DNA from: Escherichia coli
GTDB taxonomy: Bacteria; Pseudomonadota; Gammaproteobacteria; Enterobacterales; Enterobacteriaceae
Assembly: GCF_051903065.1 (NCBI RefSeq)
Contig: NZ_CP178438.1
Direction: 5' to 3' (one strand)
Length of the DNA: 64,000 nt
Shown: positions 1-52,127 of the stretch, one piece after another
Numbering within the stretch: the stretch's first letter is position 1
How the letters are laid out: every line of letters begins with the position of its first letter
Notes under the pieces: model-generated
What the model saw: the letters and a program-made list of their open reading frames with translations, nothing else
What the model was told of the DNA's origin: nothing
Databases searched by the model: none
Program-made: the position numbers and the translations under genes

Positions 1-415
1 CAATGTTTACAGCAAACCGCCGGTGAACATTCGCGCGCGTTTTGACGATCGCGGCGATCTGAGCTTTATGCAACGTGAATCCGATGGGGAAAAGCAGCAG
101 CTTTCTAACGACCAAATCGATTTATACCGTTATCGTGCTGATCAGATCCGCCAGATTAGCGATGCCTTACGTCAGGGGAGAGTCGTGCTGCGCCAGGGGC
201 GCTGGCATGCGATGGAACAGACCGTGACCACCTGCGAAGGGCAAACCATTAAACCTGATTTAGATTCGCAGGCGATAGCGCATATCGAGCGCCGCCAGAG
301 CCGCTCTTCTGTTGATGTCAGCGTGGCATGGCTGGAAGCGCCCGAAGGTTCGCAATTACTGTTAGTGGCAAACTCTGATTTCTGTCGCTGGCAACCCAAC
401 GAGAAAACGTTCTGA
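1..415 (+). CDS. yjaH: C-terminal part of DUF1481 protein YjaH (5' end lies outside the window)
   Basis: Open frame running from the window edge to the stop at 415; position upstream of zraP matches the K-12 order hupA-yjaH-zraP. Identity by synteny, not by confident sequence recall. Confidence 0.55.
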   Translation, partial: NVYSKPPVNIRARFDDRGDLSFMQRESDGEKQQLSNDQIDLYRYRADQIRQISDALRQGRVVLRQGRWHAMEQTVTTCEGQTIKPDLDSQAIAHIERRQSRSSVDVSVAWLEAPEGSQLLLVANSDFCRWQPNEKTF

Positions 416-416
416 T

Positions 417-842
417 TTACCAGTGGCCCATCCCCATATGACCGCCACCACCGCAGCCGCCGTAGCCCATGCCCATTCCGGCTCCGCGCGGAATACCCGC
501 TTCAGCCATCGCAATATCCCGTTTCACCCGTAACTCATCTAACGACTGACGCAAATTCTCCATCTCTTTGGCGACCGCGTTAATTTTGCTGCTATCCGGT
601 GGGTTCGCGGCTAACAGGGCATTGTATTCATAACGCTTCGTCACTAGTTGCTGTTGCAGTGCGCTGCTTTGAGCGTAAAAGTCATTATGGATTTTCTGCC
701 ACGCTGTCTGTTGTTCGCTGGTCAAAGGCGCGGCATTTTGCTGCCACATACCGTGTCCGCCGTGAGCAAATGCAGATGTCGATCCCATCGCCATTGCTGA
801 AAGCGCCATCATCACCAGGGCAATTTTCGTGTTCCGTTTCAT
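417..842 (-). CDS. zraP: Zinc-resistance-associated periplasmic protein ZraP
   Basis: 141-aa product starting MKRNTKIALVMMALSAMAMG (signal peptide) with a Gly/Met/His-rich C-terminus; start codon is CAT at 840-842 on the plus strand; divergent from zraS. Confidence 0.9.
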   Translation of the reverse strand: MKRNTKIALVMMALSAMAMGSTSAFAHGGHGMWQQNAAPLTSEQQTAWQKIHNDFYAQSSALQQQLVTKRYEYNALLAANPPDSSKINAVAKEMENLRQSLDELRVKRDIAMAEAGIPRGAGMGMGYGGCGGGGHMGMGHW

Positions 843-877
843 GGTTAATCCTCCAGTGGTTGTCTTACTTCGGGTAT

Positions 878-893
878 TGCATCTTCCGTGCCA
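878..893 (-). promoter_or_regulatory. Sigma-54 (-24/-12) promoter of zraP
   Basis: Reverse complement reads TGGCACGGAAGATGCA, with GG and GC at the canonical -24/-12 spacing. Confidence 0.6.
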
Positions 894-948
894 ACGATGA
901 AACGCTGATATGACGGGTAATCTGGCATGATAAACGAGTAAAAATGAC

Positions 949-992
949 TCGCCTGCTGCGGGTAGCGAGTCATTTTTACTCATTGAAACTTA
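949..992. promoter_or_regulatory. ZraR enhancer-binding palindrome between the divergent zraP and zraS promoters
   Basis: Near-perfect inverted repeat gagtaaaaatgactcgc ... gcgagtcatttttactc, centred between the two sigma-54 promoters. Confidence 0.6.
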
Positions 993-1032
993 AGCCTTTG
1001 TGTTACAGCGCAGGGTAAGCGCTGATAAAAGA

Positions 1033-1047
1033 TGGCATGATTTCTGC
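1033..1047 (+). promoter_or_regulatory. Sigma-54 (-24/-12) promoter of zraSR
   Basis: TGGCATGATTTCTGC, with GG and GC at the canonical spacing, about 35 bp upstream of the zraS start. Confidence 0.6.
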
Positions 1048-1079
1048 TGTCAGAAAGGGATGAGCAGGCAAAGAAGAAG

Positions 1080-2456
1080 ATGCGTTTTATGCAACGTTCT
1101 AAAGACTCCTTAGCTAAATGGTTAAGCGCGATCCTCCCCGTGGTCATTGTTGGGCTGGTAGGGTTGTTTGCGGTGACGGTGATTCGCGATTATGGGCGCG
1201 AGACTGCCGCTGCCAGACAAACGCTGCTGGAAAAAGGCAGTGTACTTATTCGTGCTCTCGAATCCGGCTCGCGCGTCGGCATGGGGATGCGCATGCATCA
1301 TGCGCAGCAGCAGGCCTTACTGGAAGAAATGGCCGGGCAGCCTGGAGTACGTTGGTTTGCGGTCACGGATGAACAAGGAACAATCGTGATGCATAGCAAC
1401 TCCGGCATGGTGGGAAAACAGCTTTATTCCCCGCAGGAAATGCAGCAGTTACATCCGGGAGATGAAGAAGTGTGGCGGCGGATCGATAGCGCAGACGGTG
1501 AGCCTGTTCTGGAAATTTATCGCCAGTTTCAACCGATGTTTGCTGCTGGAATGCACCGGATGCGCCATATGCAGCAGTATGCCGCGACACCACAAGCAAT
1601 TTTCATCGCTTTCGACGCCAGTAATATTGTGAGTGCCGAAGATCGTGAGCAGAGAAACACCCTGATTATCCTCTTCGCCCTGGCGACGGTCTTGCTGGCA
1701 AGCGTATTGTCATTCTTCTGGTATCGCCGCTATCTGCGCTCGCGCCAGCTTCTACAAGATGAAATGAAGCGCAAAGAGAAGCTGGTGGCGCTGGGGCATC
1801 TTGCGGCAGGCGTTGCCCACGAAATCCGTAACCCACTTTCCTCGATTAAAGGACTGGCGAAATACTTTGCCGAGCGCGCGCCTGCAGGGGGAGAAGCGCA
1901 TCAACTGGCGCAGGTGATGGCGAAAGAGGCCGACCGTTTAAACCGCGTGGTAAGCGAGTTGCTGGAACTGGTTAAGCCAACGCATCTGGCTTTGCAGGCG
2001 GTGGATCTCAACACGCTGATTAACCACTCATTACAGCTGGTAAGTCAGGATGCAAACAGCCGGGAGATCCAGTTACGCTTTACCGCCAACGACACATTAC
2101 CGGAAATTCAGGCCGACCCGGACAGGCTGACTCAGGTCCTGTTGAATCTCTATCTCAATGCTATTCAGGCGATTGGTCAGCATGGCGTGATTAGCGTGAC
2201 GGCCAGCGAAAGCGGCGCGGGCGTGAAAATCAGCGTTACCGACAGCGGTAAGGGAATTGCGGCAGATCAGCTTGATGCCATCTTCACTCCGTACTTCACC
2301 ACTAAAGCCGAAGGCACCGGACTGGGGCTGGCGGTCGTGCATAATATTGTTGAACAACACGGTGGTACAATTCAGGTCGCAAGCCAGGAGGGAAAAGGCT
2401 CAACGTTCACCCTCTGGCTTCCGGTCAATATTACGCGTAAGGACCCACAAGGATGA
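1080..2456 (+). CDS. zraS: Sensor histidine kinase ZraS
   Basis: 458-aa ORF with an N-terminal transmembrane segment, H-box HEIRNPL and ATPase G-boxes (DSGKGI, GTGLGL); the stop overlaps the zraR start. Confidence 0.9.
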   Translation: MRFMQRSKDSLAKWLSAILPVVIVGLVGLFAVTVIRDYGRETAAARQTLLEKGSVLIRALESGSRVGMGMRMHHAQQQALLEEMAGQPGVRWFAVTDEQGTIVMHSNSGMVGKQLYSPQEMQQLHPGDEEVWRRIDSADGEPVLEIYRQFQPMFAAGMHRMRHMQQYAATPQAIFIAFDASNIVSAEDREQRNTLIILFALATVLLASVLSFFWYRRYLRSRQLLQDEMKRKEKLVALGHLAAGVAHEIRNPLSSIKGLAKYFAERAPAGGEAHQLAQVMAKEADRLNRVVSELLELVKPTHLALQAVDLNTLINHSLQLVSQDANSREIQLRFTANDTLPEIQADPDRLTQVLLNLYLNAIQAIGQHGVISVTASESGAGVKISVTDSGKGIAADQLDAIFTPYFTTKAEGTGLGLAVVHNIVEQHGGTIQVASQEGKGSTFTLWLPVNITRKDPQG

Positions 2457-3778
2457 CGCACGATAATATCGATATTCTGGTGGTGGATGATGACATTAGC
2501 CACTGCACTATTTTGCAGGCTTTACTGCGCGGCTGGGGCTATAACGTCGCGCTGGCGAACAGCGGGCGACAGGCGCTGGAGCAGGTGCGGGAACAGGTTT
2601 TTGATCTTGTGCTTTGCGATGTGCGAATGGCGGAGATGGACGGCATCGCCACGCTGAAAGAGATCAAAGCGTTAAACCCGGCAATTCCGGTGCTGATTAT
2701 GACTGCGTACTCCAGCGTCGAGACGGCGGTAGAGGCACTGAAAACTGGGGCGCTGGATTATCTCATCAAGCCGCTGGATTTCGATAACCTACAGGCGACG
2801 CTGGAAAAGGCGCTCGCGCATACGCACAGTATTGATGCTGAAACACCTGCGGTGACTGCCAGCCAGTTCGGTATGGTCGGTAAAAGCCCGGCGATGCAAC
2901 ACCTGCTCAGTGAAATCGCCCTCGTCGCGCCATCGGAAGCCACGGTGCTGATCCACGGCGATTCCGGCACCGGTAAAGAGCTGGTCGCCAGGGCGATTCA
3001 CGCCAGTAGCGCACGTAGCGAAAAACCGCTGGTAACGCTCAACTGTGCGGCACTTAACGAATCCTTGCTGGAATCTGAATTGTTCGGTCACGAAAAAGGG
3101 GCGTTTACCGGAGCCGATAAACGCCGGGAAGGGCGCTTTGTTGAGGCGGACGGCGGCACGCTGTTTCTCGATGAAATTGGCGATATCTCGCCGATGATGC
3201 AGGTGCGTCTGCTGCGTGCGATTCAGGAGCGCGAAGTTCAGCGTGTCGGTAGCAACCAGACTATCTCGGTTGATGTCCGGCTGATTGCGGCGACCCATCG
3301 CGATCTTGCCGCAGAGGTGAATGCCGGGCGTTTTCGCCAGGATCTCTACTATCGCCTGAATGTGGTGGCGATTGAAGTACCATCGCTGCGGCAACGGCGG
3401 GAAGATATCCCTCTGCTGGCTGGCCATTTTCTTCAGCGCTTTGCCGAGCGTAATCGCAAGGCGGTAAAAGGCTTTACGCCACAGGCGATGGATTTGCTGA
3501 TCCACTACGACTGGCCGGGAAATATTCGTGAACTGGAAAACGCGGTGGAACGGGCGGTGGTGCTGCTGACCGGGGAATATATTTCCGAACGCGAGCTGCC
3601 GCTGGCGATTGCCGGTACGCCGATCCCGCTGGGGCAAAGTCAGGATATTCAGCCGCTGGTGGAAGTCGAAAAAGAAGTGATTCTGGCGGCACTGGAGAAA
3701 ACGGGCGGCAACAAAACCGAAGCCGCCCGTCAGTTAGGGATCACGCGCAAAACGCTATTGGCAAAACTGTCGCGTTAG
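2453..3778 (+). CDS. zraR: Sigma-54-dependent response regulator ZraR
   Basis: 441-aa ORF with receiver domain (VDDD...D), AAA+ sigma-54 activator motifs (GESGTGKE-like [14 protein letters not shown]) and a C-terminal HTH. Confidence 0.92.
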
Positions 3779-32743: not shown

Positions 32744-33568
32744 TCAGGACAGGAAGCCCAGCGCATTGCCGATAATCCCTAAGCCAAACAGGGCGAAAAT
32801 CAGCCATACCGGGTTAATTTTTTTGTTGAGCAGACGAACCATTAGTAGCGTCAGACCGAGCGCCAGCAAACCAGGGCAAAGTTGATCGAGAATGTTCTGC
32901 ACGGTCATGGTGACGGTGGAGCCATCAGCGGCATGCGTTTGTGAAACCACCAACGGTACGTTGATTGACGTCCATTTGGTGACCAGCACGCCCATCACAA
33001 ACAGTCCGAGAATCGACGCGCCTTCGGTGAGTTTTTGCAGCACATTCCCGCCCATATCGCTGACGATATTCACCCCTTTGCGAAAGCCGAGCTGTAGGCC
33101 ATACCACTTCATCGCCAGACGCACCGCGTTGAAAATAAAGAAGAACAGCCGCGGGCCGAGAATGTTGCCCGAAAGTGCCAGAGATGCGCCGAGCGCGGCG
33201 GTAATCGTGCGCAGCGTTCCCCAGACCAGTGGATCGCCAACCCCTGCCAACGGTCCCATCAGACCGACTTTGATGCCGTTAATGGTACCGTCATCAATTT
33301 CCGCGCCGTTGGCCCGCGCCTCTTCCATGGCGGCAGTGACGCCGATGACCGGGCCACATACGGCTGGCGTGGTATTGAAGAACACCAGGTGTCGCCTGAG
33401 CGCCGCAACCTGATCCTCTTTTAATGGGTAAAGTCGCTTGATGGCGGGGATCATGTCGTAGCAAAAACCCAGCCCGTGAATACGTTCAAAGTTAAAGGAC
33501 GCCTGTTGCAGGTTGGAGCGCAGAAACATGCTCACCAGATCGCCGCGTGTAATTTTTCTCTGTTCCAT
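32744..33568 (-). CDS. sorM: PTS sorbose-specific EIID component (mannose family)
   Basis: About 274 aa; MEQRKITRGDLVSMFLRSNLQQASFNFERIHGLGF is typical of ManZ-type IID proteins. Start could instead be the upstream Met at 33598. Confidence 0.8.
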   Translation of the reverse strand: MEQRKITRGDLVSMFLRSNLQQASFNFERIHGLGFCYDMIPAIKRLYPLKEDQVAALRRHLVFFNTTPAVCGPVIGVTAAMEEARANGAEIDDGTINGIKVGLMGPLAGVGDPLVWGTLRTITAALGASLALSGNILGPRLFFFIFNAVRLAMKWYGLQLGFRKGVNIVSDMGGNVLQKLTEGASILGLFVMGVLVTKWTSINVPLVVSQTHAADGSTVTMTVQNILDQLCPGLLALGLTLLMVRLLNKKINPVWLIFALFGLGIIGNALGFLS

Positions 33569-33578
33569 GATGGCTCCG

Positions 33579-34376
33579 TTAATCGTCAAGTTGGTCAAGG
33601 GCGGTGGAAGCGGGGGCCTGGAGTTGAGGTTCAGCTTTACGCCACTGTGGATTTAGCTGGATGTAGACCAGGGCCATGATCACGCCGACGCCACCGAACG
33701 CCAGCAGACTGAGATCGAGGTAGCCACCTGCGAGGAAACCGAGGAAAAAGAAAGGCATCAAATATTTCACGCCCATCATACGTAGCACCATGGCGTAACC
33801 GACCACCACGATAAAACCGCCAGCAATCTGTAGTCCTCGGGTCACAAATTCGGGAATGGCGTTTAACATATTGCTCACCATATCGGCGCTGACGAACAGC
33901 GAGACAATCAGTGCCGGAACAGCAACGCGCAGCGCCTGCACGCCAAGCGCGGAGACATGCAGAATATCGAGAGTGCGAAACCGTGCCTCTTCCGCTGCTT
34001 TATCCGCCGCGTGCTGGAACACTACGGTGATGGTACGTGCAAACACCGTCAGCACCTGGCCTGCCGCAGCCACAGGCAACGCGATGGCGATTCCGGTGGC
34101 GATGCTTTGCTGACCAACGATAACCAGAATGGCGGAGATTATGCTGGCGAGTGCAGAATCCGGAGATTGCGCCGCGCCGACGTTCATCCAGCCGAGAGCT
34201 ATCAATTCCAGCGTACCACCGAGTATTATTCCGGTTTTTAAATCACCGAGAATTAAACCAATCACCGTACAGGCAATTAACGGGCGATGAGTCTGGAATT
34301 CATCCAGCACGCTGCCCATTCCGGCAATACAGGAAAAAAGAAATATAGCAATAATTTGTAGGGTACTTATTTCCAT
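33579..34376 (-). CDS. sorA: PTS sorbose-specific EIIC component (mannose family)
   Basis: 265-aa polytopic membrane protein, ManY-like. Confidence 0.8.
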   Translation of the reverse strand: MEISTLQIIAIFLFSCIAGMGSVLDEFQTHRPLIACTVIGLILGDLKTGIILGGTLELIALGWMNVGAAQSPDSALASIISAILVIVGQQSIATGIAIALPVAAAGQVLTVFARTITVVFQHAADKAAEEARFRTLDILHVSALGVQALRVAVPALIVSLFVSADMVSNMLNAIPEFVTRGLQIAGGFIVVVGYAMVLRMMGVKYLMPFFFLGFLAGGYLDLSLLAFGGVGVIMALVYIQLNPQWRKAEPQLQAPASTALDQLDD

Positions 34377-34441
34377 GATTTGTCACCTTTTAAGTGTCGT
34401 CATCCCTGCCTGTTAAAGCATATGTACACAGGCGCTATTAT

Positions 34442-34936
34442 TTAATTTGCGATTAACTGTTCGTTTATTTTGTCGATAATATTGATTGAGGGATCTGACG
34501 CTACGACGCGTAAATCCAGTATGACGCCAAGATTATTTAACTCATGAAATGCGTTAATATCATCATCATCTAATGAAACCGCTTTGGTTAACTGTTTTTT
34601 ACCGGGCCGCCAGGCCATGCCGCCAATATTTAGGGTGCCTATTTTTACCCCCTGGCGAACCATCGCTAAGGCATCCTGTGGGCGAGTGAAAAGATAAAAA
34701 ACGGTTTCGTCCTGATATTGCGGGTTGTGATAAACCGCGACGGCTTTTTCAATATTGACCACGTTAACCTTCATTCCCGGTGGCGCAGCCTGACGCAATA
34801 ATGTCCGGCGAACTTCATCGTTATAAACTTCGTCATTGCAGATAATAATGCGCTGGGCGTTAGCCACTTTCGACCAGACGGTAGTGACCTGACCGTGGAT
34901 CAGGCGGTCATCAATGCGGGCGAGCGTAATGTTCAT
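34442..34936 (-). CDS. sorB: PTS sorbose-specific EIIB component
   Basis: 164 aa, MNITLARIDDRLIHGQVTT is the mannose-family IIB signature (phospho-His). Confidence 0.82.
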   Translation of the reverse strand: MNITLARIDDRLIHGQVTTVWSKVANAQRIIICNDEVYNDEVRRTLLRQAAPPGMKVNVVNIEKAVAVYHNPQYQDETVFYLFTRPQDALAMVRQGVKIGTLNIGGMAWRPGKKQLTKAVSLDDDDINAFHELNNLGVILDLRVVASDPSINIIDKINEQLIAN

Positions 34937-35343
34937 CAGAAATCCTCCTCTGTCGTTGCCAGTTGTTTCCAGACAACGCAGGTTTGCTTTGCGATTTGCG
35001 TCAGGTGTTCACACAGTTCATCAACATTCATGCTGTCCTGGTTATCAACCAGTTCGAGCGCCAGCGGCAGAGAAAGTCCGCTGATTACCCGCAGACGAGG
35101 ATTGCGCATCGCAAGCATCGCTGCCGCATTCCACGGGCTGCCGCACTGTAAATCCACGGCAATCAGCCACTCATCTTGATTGTGAATGCTTACTAACTTT
35201 TCCAGCTTTGCTACGATGTCTCCGGCGTTCTCGCCGGGCACAAATTCAACGGCTTCAACATTGGCGTTGCCGTAAACCATCTGAACCGATTCCAGCATGG
35301 CGCAAGCTAATTTGCCGTGGGCACAAAAAATGGCGTTGACCAT
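34936..35343 (-). CDS. sorF: PTS sorbose-specific EIIA component
   Basis: 135 aa, mannose-family IIA fold (MVNAIFCAHGKLA); its stop overlaps the sorB start. Confidence 0.8.
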   Translation of the reverse strand: MVNAIFCAHGKLACAMLESVQMVYGNANVEAVEFVPGENAGDIVAKLEKLVSIHNQDEWLIAVDLQCGSPWNAAAMLAMRNPRLRVISGLSLPLALELVDNQDSMNVDELCEHLTQIAKQTCVVWKQLATTEEDF

Positions 35344-35352
35344 AAAGCCTCC

Positions 35353-36159
35353 TTAGCCGCGCGTTTTGCCGCCCGCAATGTTAGTGGTTACTCCGGTGAT
35401 ATAGCTGGCGCGTTCAGACAGCAGATAACAAACAAAATCAGCGACTTCTGCTAATCTTCCGGCGCGCCCAATAGGAATGGCGTTTTTGGTATAGCCTTCA
35501 CGCAGCTGCTCGACGGTGATATTGCGCGTCCACGCCAGCGCTTCTTCATATTCCGGCGTGCGTAGCCCGGTTTTTTCCAGAATCCCCGGCGCGATACCGA
35601 CTACACGGATACCGTGTTTACCCAATTCTTTCGACCAGGATCGCGTGAAGCTATTAAGCGCGGCTTTGGTAGCGGCGTAACAGCTTTGTCCTTCTGAGCC
35701 TTCCAGCCCACTTTCTGAGGAAACATTCACAATCACGCCATCATGTTGTTTGACCATCTGTCGCGCCACCGCCTGCGACATCAGAAAAACGCCTTTCTGG
35801 TTGATATTGACCATTTTTTCGAATGCAGCTTCGTTGAGTTCATACTGCCCGGCAGGCGCTTTCTCATCGACCAGCAGACGCGGGAAATTGACCCCGGCGT
35901 TATTGACCAGACCGTCGATGCGACCAAAACGCTGGATAATTTCCGCTACCGTATGATTTACCTCTTTGGCGCTGGAAATATCGGTCGGCCAAAACTGATA
36001 GCCTTTATGAACTTCATATTGACCATCGCCACCGTGAATATCTACCATCTGTACGTTTGCGCCTTGTGCTAATAATTCCTCTACAATAGCCAGACCAATA
36101 CCGGATGCGCCGCCGGTGACGATAATGATTTTATCCTGCAAATTTAACCACGTTTGCAT
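35353..36159 (-). CDS. sorD: Sorbitol-6-phosphate 2-dehydrogenase (SDR family)
   Basis: 268 aa with SDR motifs TGGASGIG and YAATKAA. Confidence 0.8.
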   Translation of the reverse strand: MQTWLNLQDKIIIVTGGASGIGLAIVEELLAQGANVQMVDIHGGDGQYEVHKGYQFWPTDISSAKEVNHTVAEIIQRFGRIDGLVNNAGVNFPRLLVDEKAPAGQYELNEAAFEKMVNINQKGVFLMSQAVARQMVKQHDGVIVNVSSESGLEGSEGQSCYAATKAALNSFTRSWSKELGKHGIRVVGIAPGILEKTGLRTPEYEEALAWTRNITVEQLREGYTKNAIPIGRAGRLAEVADFVCYLLSERASYITGVTTNIAGGKTRG

Positions 36160-36228
36160 AACAGACTCCTGATTTTAGATAATAGGGACCCGCCGTAATT
36201 TTTATTACGGTAAACATCGGGAAGATTT

Positions 36229-37176
36229 TTATTTCAGTAATAGTTCAGCTGTGCTGCTATTCGTTACCAGACAATTAATATATTTTCCACGCAGTGCACC
36301 AATAATTCCGCTGTATTTTTCTTCACTCATGGCAATGCCAATGGAATATCGTGCCTGCTTTAATTTATTCATTTCGATAGAGAGTGTTTTTTCGCTCATA
36401 TTCGTTTCAACCATTGCGCCGTGAATATCAAAAAAGCGCGAGCAAATATCGCCAGCAACCTGGCGGGCATTCAGGTCGTCACTCTCTTCACCACCATAAA
36501 ACGCATGCCAGTTAGCGCCGTCGCGAATGGCCGGTGAGCCAATTCCCACCAGGGCGACATCCAGATTATCCCAGTAGGCAGAGATGGTTTTAAAGTGCTG
36601 AGACTGCATGATCCCATTACGAATTAATGGGTTATCCAGTAGAGCCGGAAAATCCGCGAGGTGCGATTCCCCTTTCAGCTTCGCTGCCGCGCTGTAGGTT
36701 AATGTGTTTACGTGATAGCGGCTTTCGAGTTTACCGGACGGTCCGCCAATAATTGGTACGCAGATTAACTGCCGCGATTGCCCCGCCTGCGGCAAGTTTT
36801 CAACCAGTGCGCTCACCGCGCGACCCCAGGAAAAACCGACAATATCGCCAGGCTCCAGCAAGCGATCCAGCAGTTGCGCGCCGTGTAACCCCATCATCGC
36901 CAGTTGAGTCTCTTCATCCTCATCATTTCCCGACACCACCACAACGTCTTTCAGGCCAAACTTTTGCTTCAGTTGCTGCTCCAGCCAGAGATTTTCGTTG
37001 TAGTCATAGTTGATGGCGATGGTGACAATTCCCTGATCGCGGCCTCGTTTAAGCAAGCGGCTGATGGTGGTGCGGTAAATACCCAGTTCGCGCGCGATTT
37101 GCGCCTGCGTCATATCCTGTTCGTAATAGAGTTGGGCAATCTTCACAATCAAACGGATATCGTCACTGTTTTCCAT
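36229..37176 (-). CDS. sorC: SorC-family transcriptional regulator of the sorbose operon
   Basis: About 315 aa from MENSDDIRLIVKIAQLYYEQDMTQAQIARELGIYRTTISRLL (HTH) plus sugar-binding domain; first gene of the cluster. Start chosen at the internal Met rather than the ORF-track Met at 37260. Confidence 0.8.
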   Translation of the reverse strand: MENSDDIRLIVKIAQLYYEQDMTQAQIARELGIYRTTISRLLKRGRDQGIVTIAINYDYNENLWLEQQLKQKFGLKDVVVVSGNDEDEETQLAMMGLHGAQLLDRLLEPGDIVGFSWGRAVSALVENLPQAGQSRQLICVPIIGGPSGKLESRYHVNTLTYSAAAKLKGESHLADFPALLDNPLIRNGIMQSQHFKTISAYWDNLDVALVGIGSPAIRDGANWHAFYGGEESDDLNARQVAGDICSRFFDIHGAMVETNMSEKTLSIEMNKLKQARYSIGIAMSEEKYSGIIGALRGKYINCLVTNSSTAELLLK

Positions 37177-37523
37177 TGCCGCCTCCTGGTTCTGCACATT
37201 TGTGCAAATACGCTTTCTCACCGCTTGATCTGATATAACCCCATCATGATGGCCTTTCAAAGCGATTTTTCACTCTTTGCATGGGGAGAAATAGCGCTTT
37301 CTCTTGCACATTTGTTTCTCTGCGCAGTAGTCATCAGCACAGGTGTGCGGAGATTCGTAATAGGTTGATTATCCTTATTTTGCCAGGCAAATTTGCATTG
37401 TACTTCCGGAGACACTTTTGTGATAAAAGGCGTGGCAGATCACATTTAATTTCGACGTTGCCGCATAACCCTGTTTTTCCCCGCTAAGAGGTACGGTATA
37501 TTCCGCGTTTTACAGGAGAATTT

Positions 37524-38921: not shown

Positions 38922-40271
38922 TTACTCAAACAAATTACTATGCAGTTTTTGTACCACCTGCTCGGCATCTTCGCCGGGCACCAGGAAGCACAGGTTATGG
39001 CTGGATGCGCCGTAACAAATCATGCGAATGTTGAACGGTTCCAGTACGCCGAATACCTCTTTGCCAACGCCGCAGGCTTTTGACAGGTCATTGCCAATCA
39101 ACGCGACCAGCGCCAGACCTTCTTCCACCTCCACCCGGCACAGTGCGGAAAGCTCCATCAGCAGAGATTGCGTTAGCAACGTATCGCCAGTGGAGGTTGA
39201 ACCGGTGGTATCAAGGGTTAATGCCACGCTCACTTCTGACGTGGTGATTAAGTCTACCGAAATATTATGCCGCGCGAGGATGCCGAAAACTTCCGCGAGG
39301 AAACCGCGAGAATGCAGCATATTCAGGCTGTGCAAAGTGAGCAGAGTCTGATTGCGACGAAGCGCCAGCGCGCGGAACAGCGGCGGATTTTCAGTTTTAT
39401 TGCACACCAGCGTACCACCTGCGCGTGGGTCTTTGCTGGAGCCGACAAAGACCGGGATATCGCTGCGTACTGCGGGTAGCAACGTTGCCGGATGCAGTAC
39501 TTTTGCACCAAAAGTTGCCATCTCTGCCGCTTCGGCAAACGCGATTTCATCAATGCGTTTTGCTGCGGAAACCACGCGTGGATCGGTGGTGTAGATGCCC
39601 GGGACGTCGGTCCAGATATCAACACGAGATGCGTGTAAAGCCTCCGCCAGCAAGGCTGCCGTATAATCGCTGCCTCCACGGCCAAGCGTCGTTGTTCGAC
39701 CTTTATTTTCGCTACCGATAAATCCCTGGGTGATCACTAAGCCTTCATTGAGGCGTGGGAGCAGCTGCAGCGCGGCCAGTTCCGCCAGCGCGGCTACATC
39801 TGGCTCTGCACGACCAAATCGGTCGTTGGTACGCATCACTTTACGTACATCAAACCACTGTGCCTGAACATCGCGTTCGCGCAGGATCTCAACAAACAGC
39901 AGGGTCGACATCAGCTCGCCGTGGCTGACCAGTTCATCTGTCAGCGCCGGAGACGTTGCCAGCGCCGCCGCTTCTGCCAGAACAGTAATGTTCTCCAGCA
40001 GACGTTCAATCTCTTCACGGATAACGTTCGGGTAACGCAGACGTTCCAGAATGGCAAACTGGATATTGCGGATTGCGTCGAGTTTTTCGAATCGCTCGCC
40101 AGGTTCCAGTCCTTCCGCTAAAGCGACCAGCAGATTAGTGATACCAGCAGAAGCCGAGAGGACAACTAAACGCACGTTGGCATCAGAAAGCACAATATCA
40201 GCGCTGCGGTTCATGGCGTCAAAATCAGCTACGCTGGTACCGCCAAATTTGGAGACAACAATTTCAGACAT
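38922..40271 (-). CDS. lysC: Lysine-sensitive aspartokinase III
   Basis: 449-aa ORF starting MSEIVVSKFGGTSVADFDAMNRSADIVL with C-terminal ACT domains. Confidence 0.95.
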   Translation of the reverse strand: MSEIVVSKFGGTSVADFDAMNRSADIVLSDANVRLVVLSASAGITNLLVALAEGLEPGERFEKLDAIRNIQFAILERLRYPNVIREEIERLLENITVLAEAAALATSPALTDELVSHGELMSTLLFVEILRERDVQAQWFDVRKVMRTNDRFGRAEPDVAALAELAALQLLPRLNEGLVITQGFIGSENKGRTTTLGRGGSDYTAALLAEALHASRVDIWTDVPGIYTTDPRVVSAAKRIDEIAFAEAAEMATFGAKVLHPATLLPAVRSDIPVFVGSSKDPRAGGTLVCNKTENPPLFRALALRRNQTLLTLHSLNMLHSRGFLAEVFGILARHNISVDLITTSEVSVALTLDTTGSTSTGDTLLTQSLLMELSALCRVEVEEGLALVALIGNDLSKACGVGKEVFGVLEPFNIRMICYGASSHNLCFLVPGEDAEQVVQKLHSNLFE

Positions 40272-42615: not shown

Positions 42616-42652
42616 AAAAACAATGCCGACTATAAGTCGGCATTGTTTTATC
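42616..42652 (+). terminator. Rho-independent terminator downstream of pgi
   Basis: Hairpin caatgccgact-ataa-gtcggcattg followed by ttttatc. Confidence 0.75.
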
Positions 42653-50582: not shown

Positions 50583-52127
50583 TTAATCAAACTTCATTCG
50601 CGTGGCTTTCAGGTTCACTATCGCCAGCGCACCCACCAGCAGGAAGATCAGCGTGGCAATTGCTGCTGCCAGACCGAAGTCCTGACCCCCGCCGCCTTCA
50701 AAAGCGATGCGGTAGGTGTAGTTAACAAGCAGGTCGGTATAACCGGCTGGCGTGGTCGTGCCAAGACGATCCGGGCCGCCGTTGGTTAACAGTTGAATCA
50801 GCACGAAGTTGTTAAAGTTAAAGGCGAAGCTGGCGATCATCAGCGGCGTCAGCGGTTTAATCAGCAGCGGCAGCGTAATCTTAAAGAAGTTCTGGAACGG
50901 ACCTGCACCATCCATTGCTGAGGCTTCATACAAATCGTCCGGAATCGCTTTCAGCAAGCCCATGCAGAGGATCATCATGTACGGATAGCCCAGCCAGGTA
51001 TTGACGATAATCAACATCGTTCGGGCGGTGGTCGGATCGCTGAACCAGGCGGGCTTCACGCCAAACAGCGCGCTCAACATCATGTTGATCTCACCGAAGC
51101 TCTGGTTAAACAACCCTTTGAAAATCAAGATTGAAATGAACGATGGCACCGCGTAGGGCAGAATCAGCAGGACGCGATAGACCGCTTTGCCGCGCAACGC
51201 TTCCCACTGCACCAGACATGCCAGAACCATGCCGACCGCCACCGTTAAAAAGACGGTGATCAGTGAAAACACCACGGTCCAGACGAAAATGGCGAGGAAC
51301 GGTTTCTGAATGCCTTCGTCGGTAAAGACGCGGGTAAAGTTTTTCCAGCCAGTAGTCACGGTGTAACCGGGGCTTAGCTTTTCATCGCCCCAGTTGCCGT
51401 CGGCGGTAATGGACTGGTAAAAGCCAATTTGGTTATTCGGACGATATTTCACGCCGCTCTGATTATTCGTCAACGTGCCGTCACCGTCGAGTGTGTAGAG
51501 CGGCTGCGTGCCAGAAAACTGGCGTAGGGAGCTCATCATCACTTTGTTGCCATCCGGCAGAATGGCGGTAATGTCACTCAGCGCCTGACGATTCTGGGTA
51601 ATAACGCGTAGATTCGCGCGTTCGCCTTCGGGCTGGGCGGTCGTTTCTTTCAGTTGCAGTTTTTGCTCGCCGCCAAATTTAAAAGCGTCGGAAAGGTAAT
51701 TTTTGCCGGTTTCGCCGTCGCTGAGGGCTAGTTGCCACTCATCGCCCGCCGGGTAAAGACCAAAATTATAGGTTTTGCCTGCTTGCCAGGAGCGATCTAA
51801 CAACACTTCCTGCGCACGTTCAAAAGTCAGCTGGTTAGTGCTGCTGTAGTTGGTGAAGGCAATGGCGATGGTGCAGACCAGAGGGAAGAGGACGAATAAT
51901 CCCATTCCAGCCATTCCCGGGTAAACATAGCGCCAGGCGTAGGCTTTACGATTGGCGAAAATATACAGCCCCGCTGAACTCAATATCAGCGTGGTAATGG
52001 CGAACAGGTATTCCCCTTGTGCGTACATTAAAACAACAAGGTAACCCACCAGCAGGCCGAGCAGACCTAACACTGACCATTTCAGCGCGTCGCTTTGCCA
52101 CCAATGTTTCTTTTTAATGACATCCAT
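50583..52127 (-). CDS. malF: Maltose ABC transporter permease MalF
   Basis: About 514 aa from [17 protein letters not shown]; start placed at that Met rather than the upstream ORF Met. Confidence 0.93.

What the first reader, a model, noticed from the sequence alone, without database searches (positions are those of the whole stretch)
843..1079. Compact divergent sigma-54 control region for zraP and zraSR
Two oppositely oriented -24/-12 promoter matches (878-893 minus strand; 1033-1047 plus strand) flank a long near-perfect palindrome (949-992) that fits the known ZraR enhancer sites. This is a textbook example and was located here purely from sequence.
Basis: partly seen in the sequence, partly recalled or inferred. 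Interest (0 to 1): 0.25.

Follow-up and report, generated by a model that had tools for sequence, protein, structure and literature searches.

The report
Known zraP–zraSR sigma-54 control region
This 237-bp gap between two E. coli genes is the already well-studied zinc/envelope-stress switch, in which one shared pair of activator (ZraR) binding sites drives two back-to-back sigma-54 promoters; it is real, conserved and ordinary.

Summary
The window is E. coli chromosome. Positions 843-1079 are exactly the zraP (417-842, minus) / zraSR (1080-3778, plus) intergenic spacer. They are letter-for-letter the sites bound by sigma-54 in published E. coli ChIP-seq. With a position-weight matrix built from 40 other in vivo sites, they rank first and second of about 128,000 positions in the window.

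It lies at 933-984 (perfect 17-bp arms 936-952 and 965-981), not 949-992. It is the longest perfect inverted repeat in the 64 kb. Each arm is itself a 15-bp dyad (GAGT-N7-ACTC), and the two centres are 31 bp apart.

Across 15 sequences from five genera, the two promoters and two dyads are 94-98% conserved while the DNA between them is 36-50% conserved. Spacings are fixed, apart from one 11-bp (one helical turn) indel.

Published gSELEX and ChIP-exo place ZraR on this spacer. Transcription start sites could not be checked here.

Verdict: already known; interpretation supported; low interest.

The parts
417..842 (-). zraP gene (periplasmic zinc-binding chaperone / repressor of ZraS signalling)
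   Evidence: ORF. NCBIfam NF008584 equivalog, 274 bits against a cut-off of 200. Pfam Metal_resist. RefSeq annotation.
848..853 (-). zraP Shine-Dalgarno sequence (GGAGGA on the minus strand)
   Evidence: Read directly from the sequence. 90% conserved across lineages.
867..867 (-). Predicted zraP transcription start, 12 nt downstream of the -12 C, giving a 25-nt 5' UTR
   Evidence: Inferred from motif geometry. It reproduces the 'distance 25' of Bonocora 2015, Table 1. Not experimentally mapped in any source I could read.
878..894 (-). zraP sigma-54 promoter, TTGGCACGGAAGATGCA (GG at 892-891, GC at 880-879)
   Evidence: PWM 15.39 bits, rank 2 in the window. Identical to ChIP-seq site OS38. 98% conserved across 9 lineages.
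936..950 (+). ZraR site 1: 15-bp dyad GAGTAAAAATGACTC, centre 943 (-76 from the zraP start, -116 from the zraS start)
   Evidence: 97% conserved. Spacings. That ZraR contacts precisely these bases is inferred; published binding data are at the resolution of the whole spacer.
951..966 (.). Spacer between the two dyads: sequence variable, length invariant
   Evidence: 50% identity, but no indel in any of the 15 sequences. Centre-to-centre distance is always 31 bp.
967..981 (-). ZraR site 2: the same 15-mer in inverted orientation (GAGTCATTTTTACTC on the plus strand), centre 974 (-107 from the zraP start, -85 from the zraS start)
   Evidence: 94% conserved. Spacings.
1032..1048 (+). zraSR sigma-54 promoter, ATGGCATGATTTCTGCT (GG at 1034-1035, GC at 1046-1047)
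   Evidence: PWM 17.67 bits, rank 1 in the window. Identical to ChIP-seq site OS39. 98% conserved.
1059..1059 (+). Predicted zraSR transcription start, giving a 21-nt 5' UTR
   Evidence: Inferred from motif geometry. It reproduces the 'distance 21' of Bonocora 2015. Not mapped.
1080..2456 (+). zraS gene (sensor histidine kinase; H-box HEIRNP at residue 247)
   Evidence: NCBIfam NF007688, 887 bits against a cut-off of 479. Pfam HisKA and HATPase_c. H-box position.
2453..3778 (+). zraR gene (sigma-54 enhancer-binding response regulator: receiver Asp56, Walker A at 169, GAFTGA at 216, C-terminal HTH_8)
   Evidence: NCBIfam NF007689, 996 bits against a cut-off of 760. Pfam Response_reg, Sigma54_activat and HTH_8. 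PDB 1OJL ZraR, E = 5e-178. Motif positions.

Best explanation
This is the shared, bidirectional sigma-54 control region of the E. coli zraP gene and zraSR operon.

Proposed mechanism:
1. RNA polymerase carrying sigma-54 sits in closed complexes on two divergent -24/-12 promoters (894-878 on the minus strand; 1032-1048 on the plus strand).
2. Between the promoters lie two identical 15-bp dyads in inverted orientation (936-950 and 967-981). Their centres are 31 bp apart, about three helical turns, so they lie on the same face of the DNA.
3. Each dyad is inferred to bind a dimer of the response regulator ZraR through its C-terminal Fis-type helix-turn-helix.
4. When the membrane kinase ZraS senses periplasmic Zn2+/Pb2+ or envelope stress, it phosphorylates ZraR on Asp56.
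5. The enhancer-bound dimers then nucleate an AAA+ hexamer.
6. The DNA loops over roughly 75-115 bp, the GAFTGA loops contact sigma-54, and ATP hydrolysis opens the promoter.
7. Transcription starts near 867 (zraP) and near 1059 (zraSR). This gives positive autoregulation of the sensor and regulator, plus induction of ZraP, which is reported to feed back negatively on ZraS.

Shown here or in the cited literature: the identity of the genes, sigma-54 occupancy of these exact motifs, ZraR binding to the spacer, and conservation of the sequence and spacing of the four elements.

Inferred: which bases ZraR contacts, the stoichiometry, the looping geometry and the exact start sites.
For: - Gene identities.
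- Promoters: exact GG-N10-GC geometry. Ranks 1 and 2 with an independent PWM. Identical to in vivo sigma-54 ChIP-seq sites OS38 and OS39, with the same predicted UTR lengths. Expression falls in an rpoN mutant. Sigma-54 holoenzyme gSELEX peak in this spacer. Salmonella orthologous promoters bound in ChIP-chip.
- Enhancer: longest perfect inverted repeat in the 64 kb, far beyond shuffles. The 15-mer occurs only twice in the window, at these two places. ZraR gSELEX gives this spacer as its single high-affinity genomic target. ChIP-exo peaks lie upstream of zraP and zraSR.
- Phylogenetic footprint, 15 sequences from Escherichia, Citrobacter, Salmonella, Kosakonia and '[Enterobacter] lignolyticus': the four elements are 94-98% identical while the intervening DNA is 36-50% identical.
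- Spacing: dyad-to-dyad distance is invariant at 31 bp. Dyad-to-zraS-promoter distance is invariant to within 1 bp. Dyad-to-zraP-promoter distance is either 75-76 or 87 bp, so the clades differ by one helical turn, consistent with a face-of-helix constraint.
- No sigma-70-like promoter and no terminator-like site in 780-1140.
Against: - Neither promoter match is individually significant in a 64-kb scan. The case rests on their joint placement, conservation and published occupancy data.
- I could not read the primary footprinting paper (Leonhartsberger et al. 2001 is not held) or Rome et al. 2018. Assigning ZraR to the two dyads therefore rests on conservation plus spacer-level binding data. 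It also fits my recollection that the 2001 abstract describes 'two inverted repeats separated by a 14 bp spacer', which matches the 17-mers 935-951 and 966-982.
- In Bonocora's Table 1, both promoters are flagged as 'Predicted', not 'Confirmed', in EcoCyc. I therefore found no mapped start site.
- No IHF consensus lies between the enhancer and either promoter, so how the short loop is made is unknown.
Confidence: 0.95

Rival explanations
1. The palindrome is a transcript-level element, such as a hairpin, an intrinsic terminator or an attenuator, rather than a protein-binding enhancer.
For: A 17-20 bp perfect stem with a 12-nt loop could fold if it were transcribed.
Against: - It lies upstream of both predicted start sites, and both flanking genes read away from it. 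No known transcript covers it.
- The stem is A/T-rich and has no following T-run, and the terminator scan found nothing.
- In other genera, substitutions hit one arm at a time without compensation: site 1 ACTC becomes ACCC while site 2 keeps GAGT in C. amalonaticus-3, [E.] lignolyticus and C. rodentium. That breaks arm-to-arm pairing but keeps each 15-mer close to the consensus, as expected for two separate protein sites and not for an RNA or DNA stem.
Confidence: 0.02
2. The -24/-12 matches are chance look-alikes, and zraP/zraSR are really driven by sigma-70-type promoters.
For: Single-site PWM scores of 15-18 bits arise by chance about once per 64 kb. The loose consensus scan is not enriched.
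Against: - No sigma-70-like promoter in the spacer.
- Both motifs are 98% conserved across five genera, while the neighbouring DNA is not.
- Published sigma-54 ChIP-seq peaks (fold-above-threshold 39 and 9) fall on exactly these sequences.
- Expression is rpoN-dependent.
- The adjacent operon encodes a sigma-54 activator.
Confidence: 0.02
3. The enhancer serves only one of the two promoters (zraP), and the zraS motif is a bound but unproductive sigma-54 site.
For: The zraS ChIP-seq signal is weaker (fold-above-threshold 9 against 39). zraS was not captured in the ZraR iModulon. Bonocora et al. stress that many sigma-54 sites are not productive promoters.
Against: - zraS mRNA falls 3.2 log2 units in a zraR deletion under Zn2+ and falls in an rpoN mutant.
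- The Salmonella hydHG operon is induced 3.7-fold by a promiscuous activator.
- The zraS motif and its distance to the dyads are the most tightly conserved features of the spacer.
Confidence: 0.04

Closest known systems
E. coli K-12 zraP-zraSR (hydHG) intergenic region (Leonhartsberger et al. 2001; RegulonDB/EcoCyc zraPp and zraSp)
   Same: The 17-nt promoter motifs are letter-identical to ChIP-seq sites OS38 and OS39, and the 26-nt promoter stretches are letter-identical to those printed in Zhao et al. 2010. Same genes, same order (yjaH-zraP / zraS-zraR-purD), and same predicted UTR lengths of 25 and 21 nt.
   Different: Nothing of substance: this is the same locus in another E. coli strain. 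The strain differs from K-12 elsewhere in the window, for example by carrying a sorbose operon.
NtrC enhancer at glnAp2
   Same: A response-regulator bEBP with a Fis-type HTH. Two dyad-symmetric dimer sites about three helical turns apart, roughly 100 bp upstream of a -24/-12 promoter, nucleate an oligomer that acts by DNA looping (established knowledge of the NtrC family; ZraR scores 458 bits against the NtrC model without reaching its 558.6-bit cut-off).
   Different: Here one enhancer sits between two divergent sigma-54 promoters and serves both. The site sequence is different (GAGT-N7-ACTC). The two sites are themselves an exact inverted pair.
FhlA-controlled divergent hycA / hypA sigma-54 promoters; NorR norR / norVW spacer
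   Same: Compact divergent control regions in E. coli with sigma-54 promoter(s) and bEBP sites in one spacer. hycA and hypA are sites OS27 and OS28. NorR is a 'type-A single-target' regulator like ZraR.
   Different: hyc/hyp use separate upstream activating sequences and IHF. NorR needs three sites and only one of its two promoters is sigma-54 dependent. The zra region has two sites, two sigma-54 promoters and no recognisable IHF site.

Membership tests
sigma-54 (-24/-12) promoter | GG and GC dinucleotides separated by exactly 10 nt within a TGGCAC-N5-TTGCW-like context | tested here: met
   TGGCACGGAAGATGCA (893->878, minus) and TGGCATGATTTCTGCT (1033-1048, plus).
sigma-54 (-24/-12) promoter | Scores like genuine in vivo sites with an independent position-weight matrix | tested here: met
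   17.67 and 15.39 bits, against a training-set median of 15.8 and range of 9.1-21.7. Ranks 1 and 2 in the window. Singly not beyond the 64-kb chance level.
sigma-54 (-24/-12) promoter | Occupied by sigma-54 in vivo and expression dependent on rpoN | not testable with these tools
   From the literature, for identical sequences in K-12: ChIP-seq OS38 and OS39 (PMC4591121), an rpoN-mutant microarray (PMC2831329) and holoenzyme gSELEX (PMC8743547).
sigma-54 (-24/-12) promoter | Transcription starts about 12 nt downstream of the GC element | not testable with these tools
   Only predicted starts are available (867 and 1059). Both promoters are flagged 'P' (predicted in EcoCyc) in Bonocora Table 1. 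The primary paper is not held.
bEBP enhancer (upstream activating sequence) | Dyad-symmetric sites located about 70-150 bp upstream of the sigma-54 promoter they serve | tested here: met
   Dyad centres lie at -76 and -107 (zraP) and at -85 and -116 (zraS).
bEBP enhancer (upstream activating sequence) | A cognate bEBP with a DNA-binding domain is present and binds the element | tested here: inconclusive
   The presence of ZraR with HTH_8, GAFTGA and Walker A is met. Binding is published only at the resolution of the spacer (gSELEX, ChIP-exo). Base-level contacts were not verifiable here.
bEBP enhancer (upstream activating sequence) | Sequence and helical phasing relative to the promoters under purifying selection | tested here: met
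   Sites are 94-97% conserved against 36-50% for the flanks. The 31-bp spacing is invariant. The only length change is an 11-bp indel.
ZraPSR three-component system | ZraP, ZraS and ZraR orthologues in the divergent zraP / zraSR arrangement | tested here: met
   All three proteins exceed their NCBIfam equivalog cut-offs. RefSeq annotation. Synteny yjaG-hupA-yjaH-zraP / zraS is conserved in Salmonella, Kosakonia, C. rodentium and [E.] lignolyticus.

The most novel reading that the evidence does not exclude
The spacer may hold more than the four textbook elements.

(a) The distance between the ZraR dyads and the zraP promoter differs between Escherichia and the other genera by an 11-bp indel (75-76 against 87 bp), while every other spacing is fixed. 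This suggests a strict face-of-helix requirement that has not, to my knowledge, been tested for ZraR.

(b) A partly conserved TTTGTGT...CAGGG block (997-1015) between site 2 and the zraS promoter could bind an unidentified architectural or regulatory protein that substitutes for the missing IHF site.

(c) Because a single enhancer sits between two closed complexes, one ZraR hexamer may activate only one promoter at a time. That would set up competition that fixes the ZraP : ZraSR ratio.
Probability: 0.15. Interest if true: 0.3.

Novelty: already known. Interest (0 to 1): 0.1.

Why it matters
It matters little for discovery: this is one of the roughly 20 classical sigma-54 control regions of E. 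coli, and its promoter (PzraP) is already used in zinc and lead biosensors.

Its value is as a positive control. It shows that a sequence-only reader can recover a real divergent sigma-54/enhancer module.

The comparative analysis here also gives a clean base-level definition of the conserved elements and spacings. That definition could guide biosensor minimisation or a helical-phasing experiment.

Tried and rejected
- A loose consensus scan (TGGCAC-N5-TTGCW, 2 mismatches) was not enriched: 35 hits against 42.7 expected. Consensus matching alone is uninformative, so I replaced it with a leave-out PWM and positional reasoning.
- The primary papers (Leonhartsberger 2001; Rome 2018) are not in the library. 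Searches for footprint or transcription-start text found no paper giving base-level ZraR contacts or mapped starts.
- The IHF consensus (WATCAANNNNTTR, up to 1 mismatch) gave no hit in 843-1079.
- The sigma-70 promoter and terminator scan of 780-1140 gave nothing.
- The genome-contig scan with ZraP returned only Escherichia and Citrobacter. I extended it through a protein search and four contig look-ups.
- Other sigma-54-like PWM hits in the window (14.0-14.6 bits) were checked against the main-text tables of Bonocora 2015 and none is listed. They are intragenic and at chance level.
- The second TGGCATGAT copy at 923-931 was considered as a third promoter. I rejected it because it has no -12 GC, scores 6.5 bits and is not conserved outside Escherichia.

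Full report
What is there. The window is E. coli chromosome. A 1.1-kb query around the finding matches 5,420 of 5,426 complete E. coli genomes, many at 100% identity. In those genomes RefSeq annotates yjaH, zraP, zraS, zraR and purD. In window coordinates zraP is 417-842 on the minus strand, zraS is 1080-2456 and zraR is 2453-3778, both on the plus strand. The finding's interval, 843-1079, is therefore exactly the 237-bp zraP/zraS intergenic spacer. All three proteins exceed their NCBIfam equivalog cut-offs: ZraP 274 against 200 bits, ZraS 887 against 479, and ZraR 996 against 760. ZraR has the full bEBP architecture of Response_reg, Sigma54_activat, AAA_lid_14 and HTH_8. It carries Asp56, Walker A at residue 169 and GAFTGA at residue 216. 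It matches the solved ZraR structure 1OJL at E = 5e-178.

The observation: promoters. The minus strand from 893 to 878 reads TGGCACGGAAGATGCA, and the plus strand from 1033 to 1048 reads TGGCATGATTTCTGCT. Each has GG and GC exactly 10 nt apart. A loose consensus scan is not enriched in the window (35 hits against 42.7 expected), so consensus matching alone proves nothing. I built a position-weight matrix from the 40 other intergenic sigma-54 ChIP-seq motifs of Bonocora et al. 2015, leaving out the two zra sites. With it, the zraS and zraP motifs rank first (17.67 bits) and second (15.39 bits) of about 128,000 strand positions. Scores of that size arise by chance about 0.65 times per simulated 64-kb window. 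The significance therefore comes from finding two of them in one 237-bp spacer, pointing outward, each ending 36 or 32 nt before a start codon. From the null rate I estimate a chance of order 1e-4 or less for the whole window.

The observation: palindrome. It is real but mis-located. The arms are 933-952 and 965-984 (20 nt, 95% complementary, 12 nt between). The perfect core is 936-952 / 965-981. It is the longest perfect inverted repeat in the 64 kb. In 500 dinucleotide shuffles of the spacer the best stem never exceeded 11 bp. Each arm is itself an imperfect 15-bp dyad, GAGT-N7-ACTC. The 15-mer GAGTAAAAATGACTC occurs exactly twice in the window, once on each strand, at 936-950 and 967-981. 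The structure is therefore two dimer-type sites in inverted orientation, with centres at 943 and 974, 31 bp apart (about three helical turns).

External evidence. The 17-mers TTGGCACGGAAGATGCA and ATGGCATGATTTCTGCT are letter-for-letter the sigma-54 ChIP-seq sites OS38 (zraP, fold-above-threshold 39) and OS39 (zraS, fold-above-threshold 9) of Bonocora et al. 2015. The start sites I derive from the geometry are 867 and 1059, giving 5' UTRs of 25 and 21 nt, and these reproduce the 'distance' column of that table (PMC4591121). Zhao et al. 2010 list the same sequences as known sigma-54 promoters whose expression falls in an rpoN mutant (PMC2831329). Sigma-54 holoenzyme gSELEX peaks in this spacer (PMC8743547). 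The Salmonella orthologues TGGCACGGAAGATGCAAG and TGGCATGATCTCTGCTTA were bound in ChIP-chip and induced by a promiscuous activator (PMC3844500). For the activator, gSELEX found this spacer to be ZraR's single high-affinity genomic target, with 81 of 86 clones (PMC8249747). ChIP-exo found ZraR peaks upstream of zraP and zraSR, and zraS mRNA dropped 3.2 log2 units in a zraR deletion under zinc (PMC7657598). The primary footprinting paper (Leonhartsberger et al. 2001) is not held. My recollection is that its abstract describes 'two inverted repeats separated by a 14 bp spacer'. That fits the 17-mers 935-951 and 966-982, but it is memory, not a test.

Comparative evidence made here. I collected the orthologous spacer from 14 further genomes: E. 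coli (two strains), E. whittamii, an unnamed Escherichia sp., E. albertii, five Citrobacter amalonaticus/sp., C. rodentium, Salmonella enterica, Kosakonia oryziphila and '[Enterobacter] lignolyticus'. In the alignment, identity to the window over eight non-redundant other lineages is as follows:
- zraP promoter: 0.98
- site 1: 0.97
- site 2: 0.94
- zraS promoter: 0.98
- segment between the zraP promoter and site 1: 0.36
- spacer between the two sites: 0.50
- segment between site 2 and the zraS promoter: 0.49
- zraS leader: 0.41

Spacings are constrained as well. Site-to-site distance is 31 bp in all 15 sequences. Site 2 to the zraS start is 84-85 bp in all. Site 1 to the zraP start is 75-76 bp in Escherichia and 87 bp in every other genus, so the clades differ by an 11-bp indel, one helical turn. 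Substitutions in the dyads hit one arm at a time without compensation in the other arm. For example, site 1 ACTC becomes ACCC while site 2 keeps GAGT in C. amalonaticus-3, [E.] lignolyticus and C. rodentium. That is the pattern expected of two separate protein-binding sites, not of a selected hairpin.

Mechanism. The best-supported reading is the textbook one. Sigma-54 holoenzyme forms closed complexes at both promoters. ZraS phosphorylates ZraR in response to periplasmic Zn2+/Pb2+ or envelope stress. ZraR dimers on the two in-phase dyads nucleate an AAA+ hexamer. The DNA loops over about 75-115 bp, and ATP hydrolysis opens either promoter. This induces ZraP and positively autoregulates ZraSR. 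Gene identity, sigma-54 occupancy, spacer-level ZraR binding and the conservation of elements and phasing are shown. The base-level ZraR contacts, the stoichiometry, the looping geometry and the exact start sites are inferred. No sigma-70-like promoter or terminator-like structure is present in 780-1140. No IHF consensus is present in the spacer, so the short loop presumably relies on intrinsic flexibility or on the in-phase A5/T5 tracts inside the two sites. That last point is speculation.

Rivals. I considered three:
- A transcript-level hairpin or terminator. It lies upstream of both starts, has no T-run, and shows non-compensatory substitutions.
- Chance promoter look-alikes. This is contradicted by conservation, ChIP-seq and rpoN dependence.
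- A one-sided enhancer with an unproductive zraS site. This is contradicted by the zraR-dependent zraS expression and by the very tight conservation of the zraS motif and its spacing.
None of the three reaches more than a few percent.

Comparison and novelty. This is not merely similar to the known zraP-zraSR control region. It is that region, in an E. coli strain other than K-12; the strain carries a sorbose operon between rluF and pepE. Functionally it resembles the NtrC/glnAp2 arrangement of two dimer sites three turns apart. It differs in that one enhancer is shared by two divergent sigma-54 promoters. The finding is already known and deserves a low interest score. The only mildly new details are the exact 11-bp phasing-preserving indel, the partly conserved TTTGTGT...CAGGG block at 997-1015, and an Escherichia-specific duplicate of the zraS -24 element at 923-931.

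Noticed in passing
window 900-938 (compare 1017-1041): A second copy of the zraS -24 element: TGGCATGAT at 923-931 equals 1033-1041. The upstream AARCGCTGATA is also duplicated (900-910 and 1017-1027). The copy lacks the -12 GC, scores only 6.5 bits, and is absent from E. albertii and all other genera. It is probably a relic of a partial duplication, or a decoy, and not a promoter.
   Followed up: partly
window 894-935, and the alignment of L001-L015: The only length difference in the control region between genera is an 11-bp indel between the zraP promoter and ZraR site 1: 75-76 bp in Escherichia and 87 bp in Citrobacter, Salmonella, Kosakonia and [E.] lignolyticus. That is one helical turn, so the phasing is preserved.
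   Followed up: yes
window 997-1015: TTTGTGT (997-1003) and CAGGG (1011-1015), between ZraR site 2 and the zraS promoter, are invariant in Escherichia and most Citrobacter but degenerate in Salmonella and Kosakonia. No IHF consensus lies here. The function is unknown.
   Followed up: partly
window 1080 and 1089: Two in-frame ATGs could start zraS. The annotated one (1080) is missing in E. albertii and is ATA in one C. amalonaticus. The second (1089) is ATA in Salmonella, Kosakonia and [E.] lignolyticus. The start codon used seems to differ between lineages.
   Followed up: no
window 30703-30719, 38941-38957, 51208-51224, 63321-63337 (all minus strand): Other sigma-54-like PWM hits of 14.0-14.6 bits. 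All are intragenic and in the sense orientation, inside pepE, the 3' end of lysC, malF and plsB. None appears in the main-text ChIP-seq tables of Bonocora 2015, and the scores are at chance level.
   Followed up: partly
window 42617-42649: A perfect 15-bp stem with a 3-nt loop, flanked by an A-run and a T-run (AAAACAATGCCGACT-ATA-AGTCGGCATTGTTTT), just downstream of pgi. It looks like a bidirectional intrinsic terminator.
   Followed up: partly
window about 31400-37200 (L016 29133-34846): A sorbose-type PTS/sorE operon with its regulator lies between rluF and pepE. From memory, K-12 lacks it at this position. Because of this the window is not collinear with K-12 and does not reach the pspG sigma-54 promoter.
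   Followed up: no
window 415-417, 2453-2456, 3775-3778: Tight gene packing around the locus. The yjaH and zraP stop codons are convergent with one base between them. zraS and zraR overlap by 4 bp (ATGA), suggesting translational coupling. zraR and purD are convergent and overlap by 4 bp; yjaH-zraP and zraR-purD are among the gene pairs listed in the excludon table of PMC12288877.
   Followed up: no
L012 1-1436 (Salmonella): The automated gene call for Salmonella zraS is 528 aa and runs through the whole control region, leaving a 64-bp gap to zraP. This is an over-extended ORF call that would hide the promoters and the enhancer.
   Followed up: no
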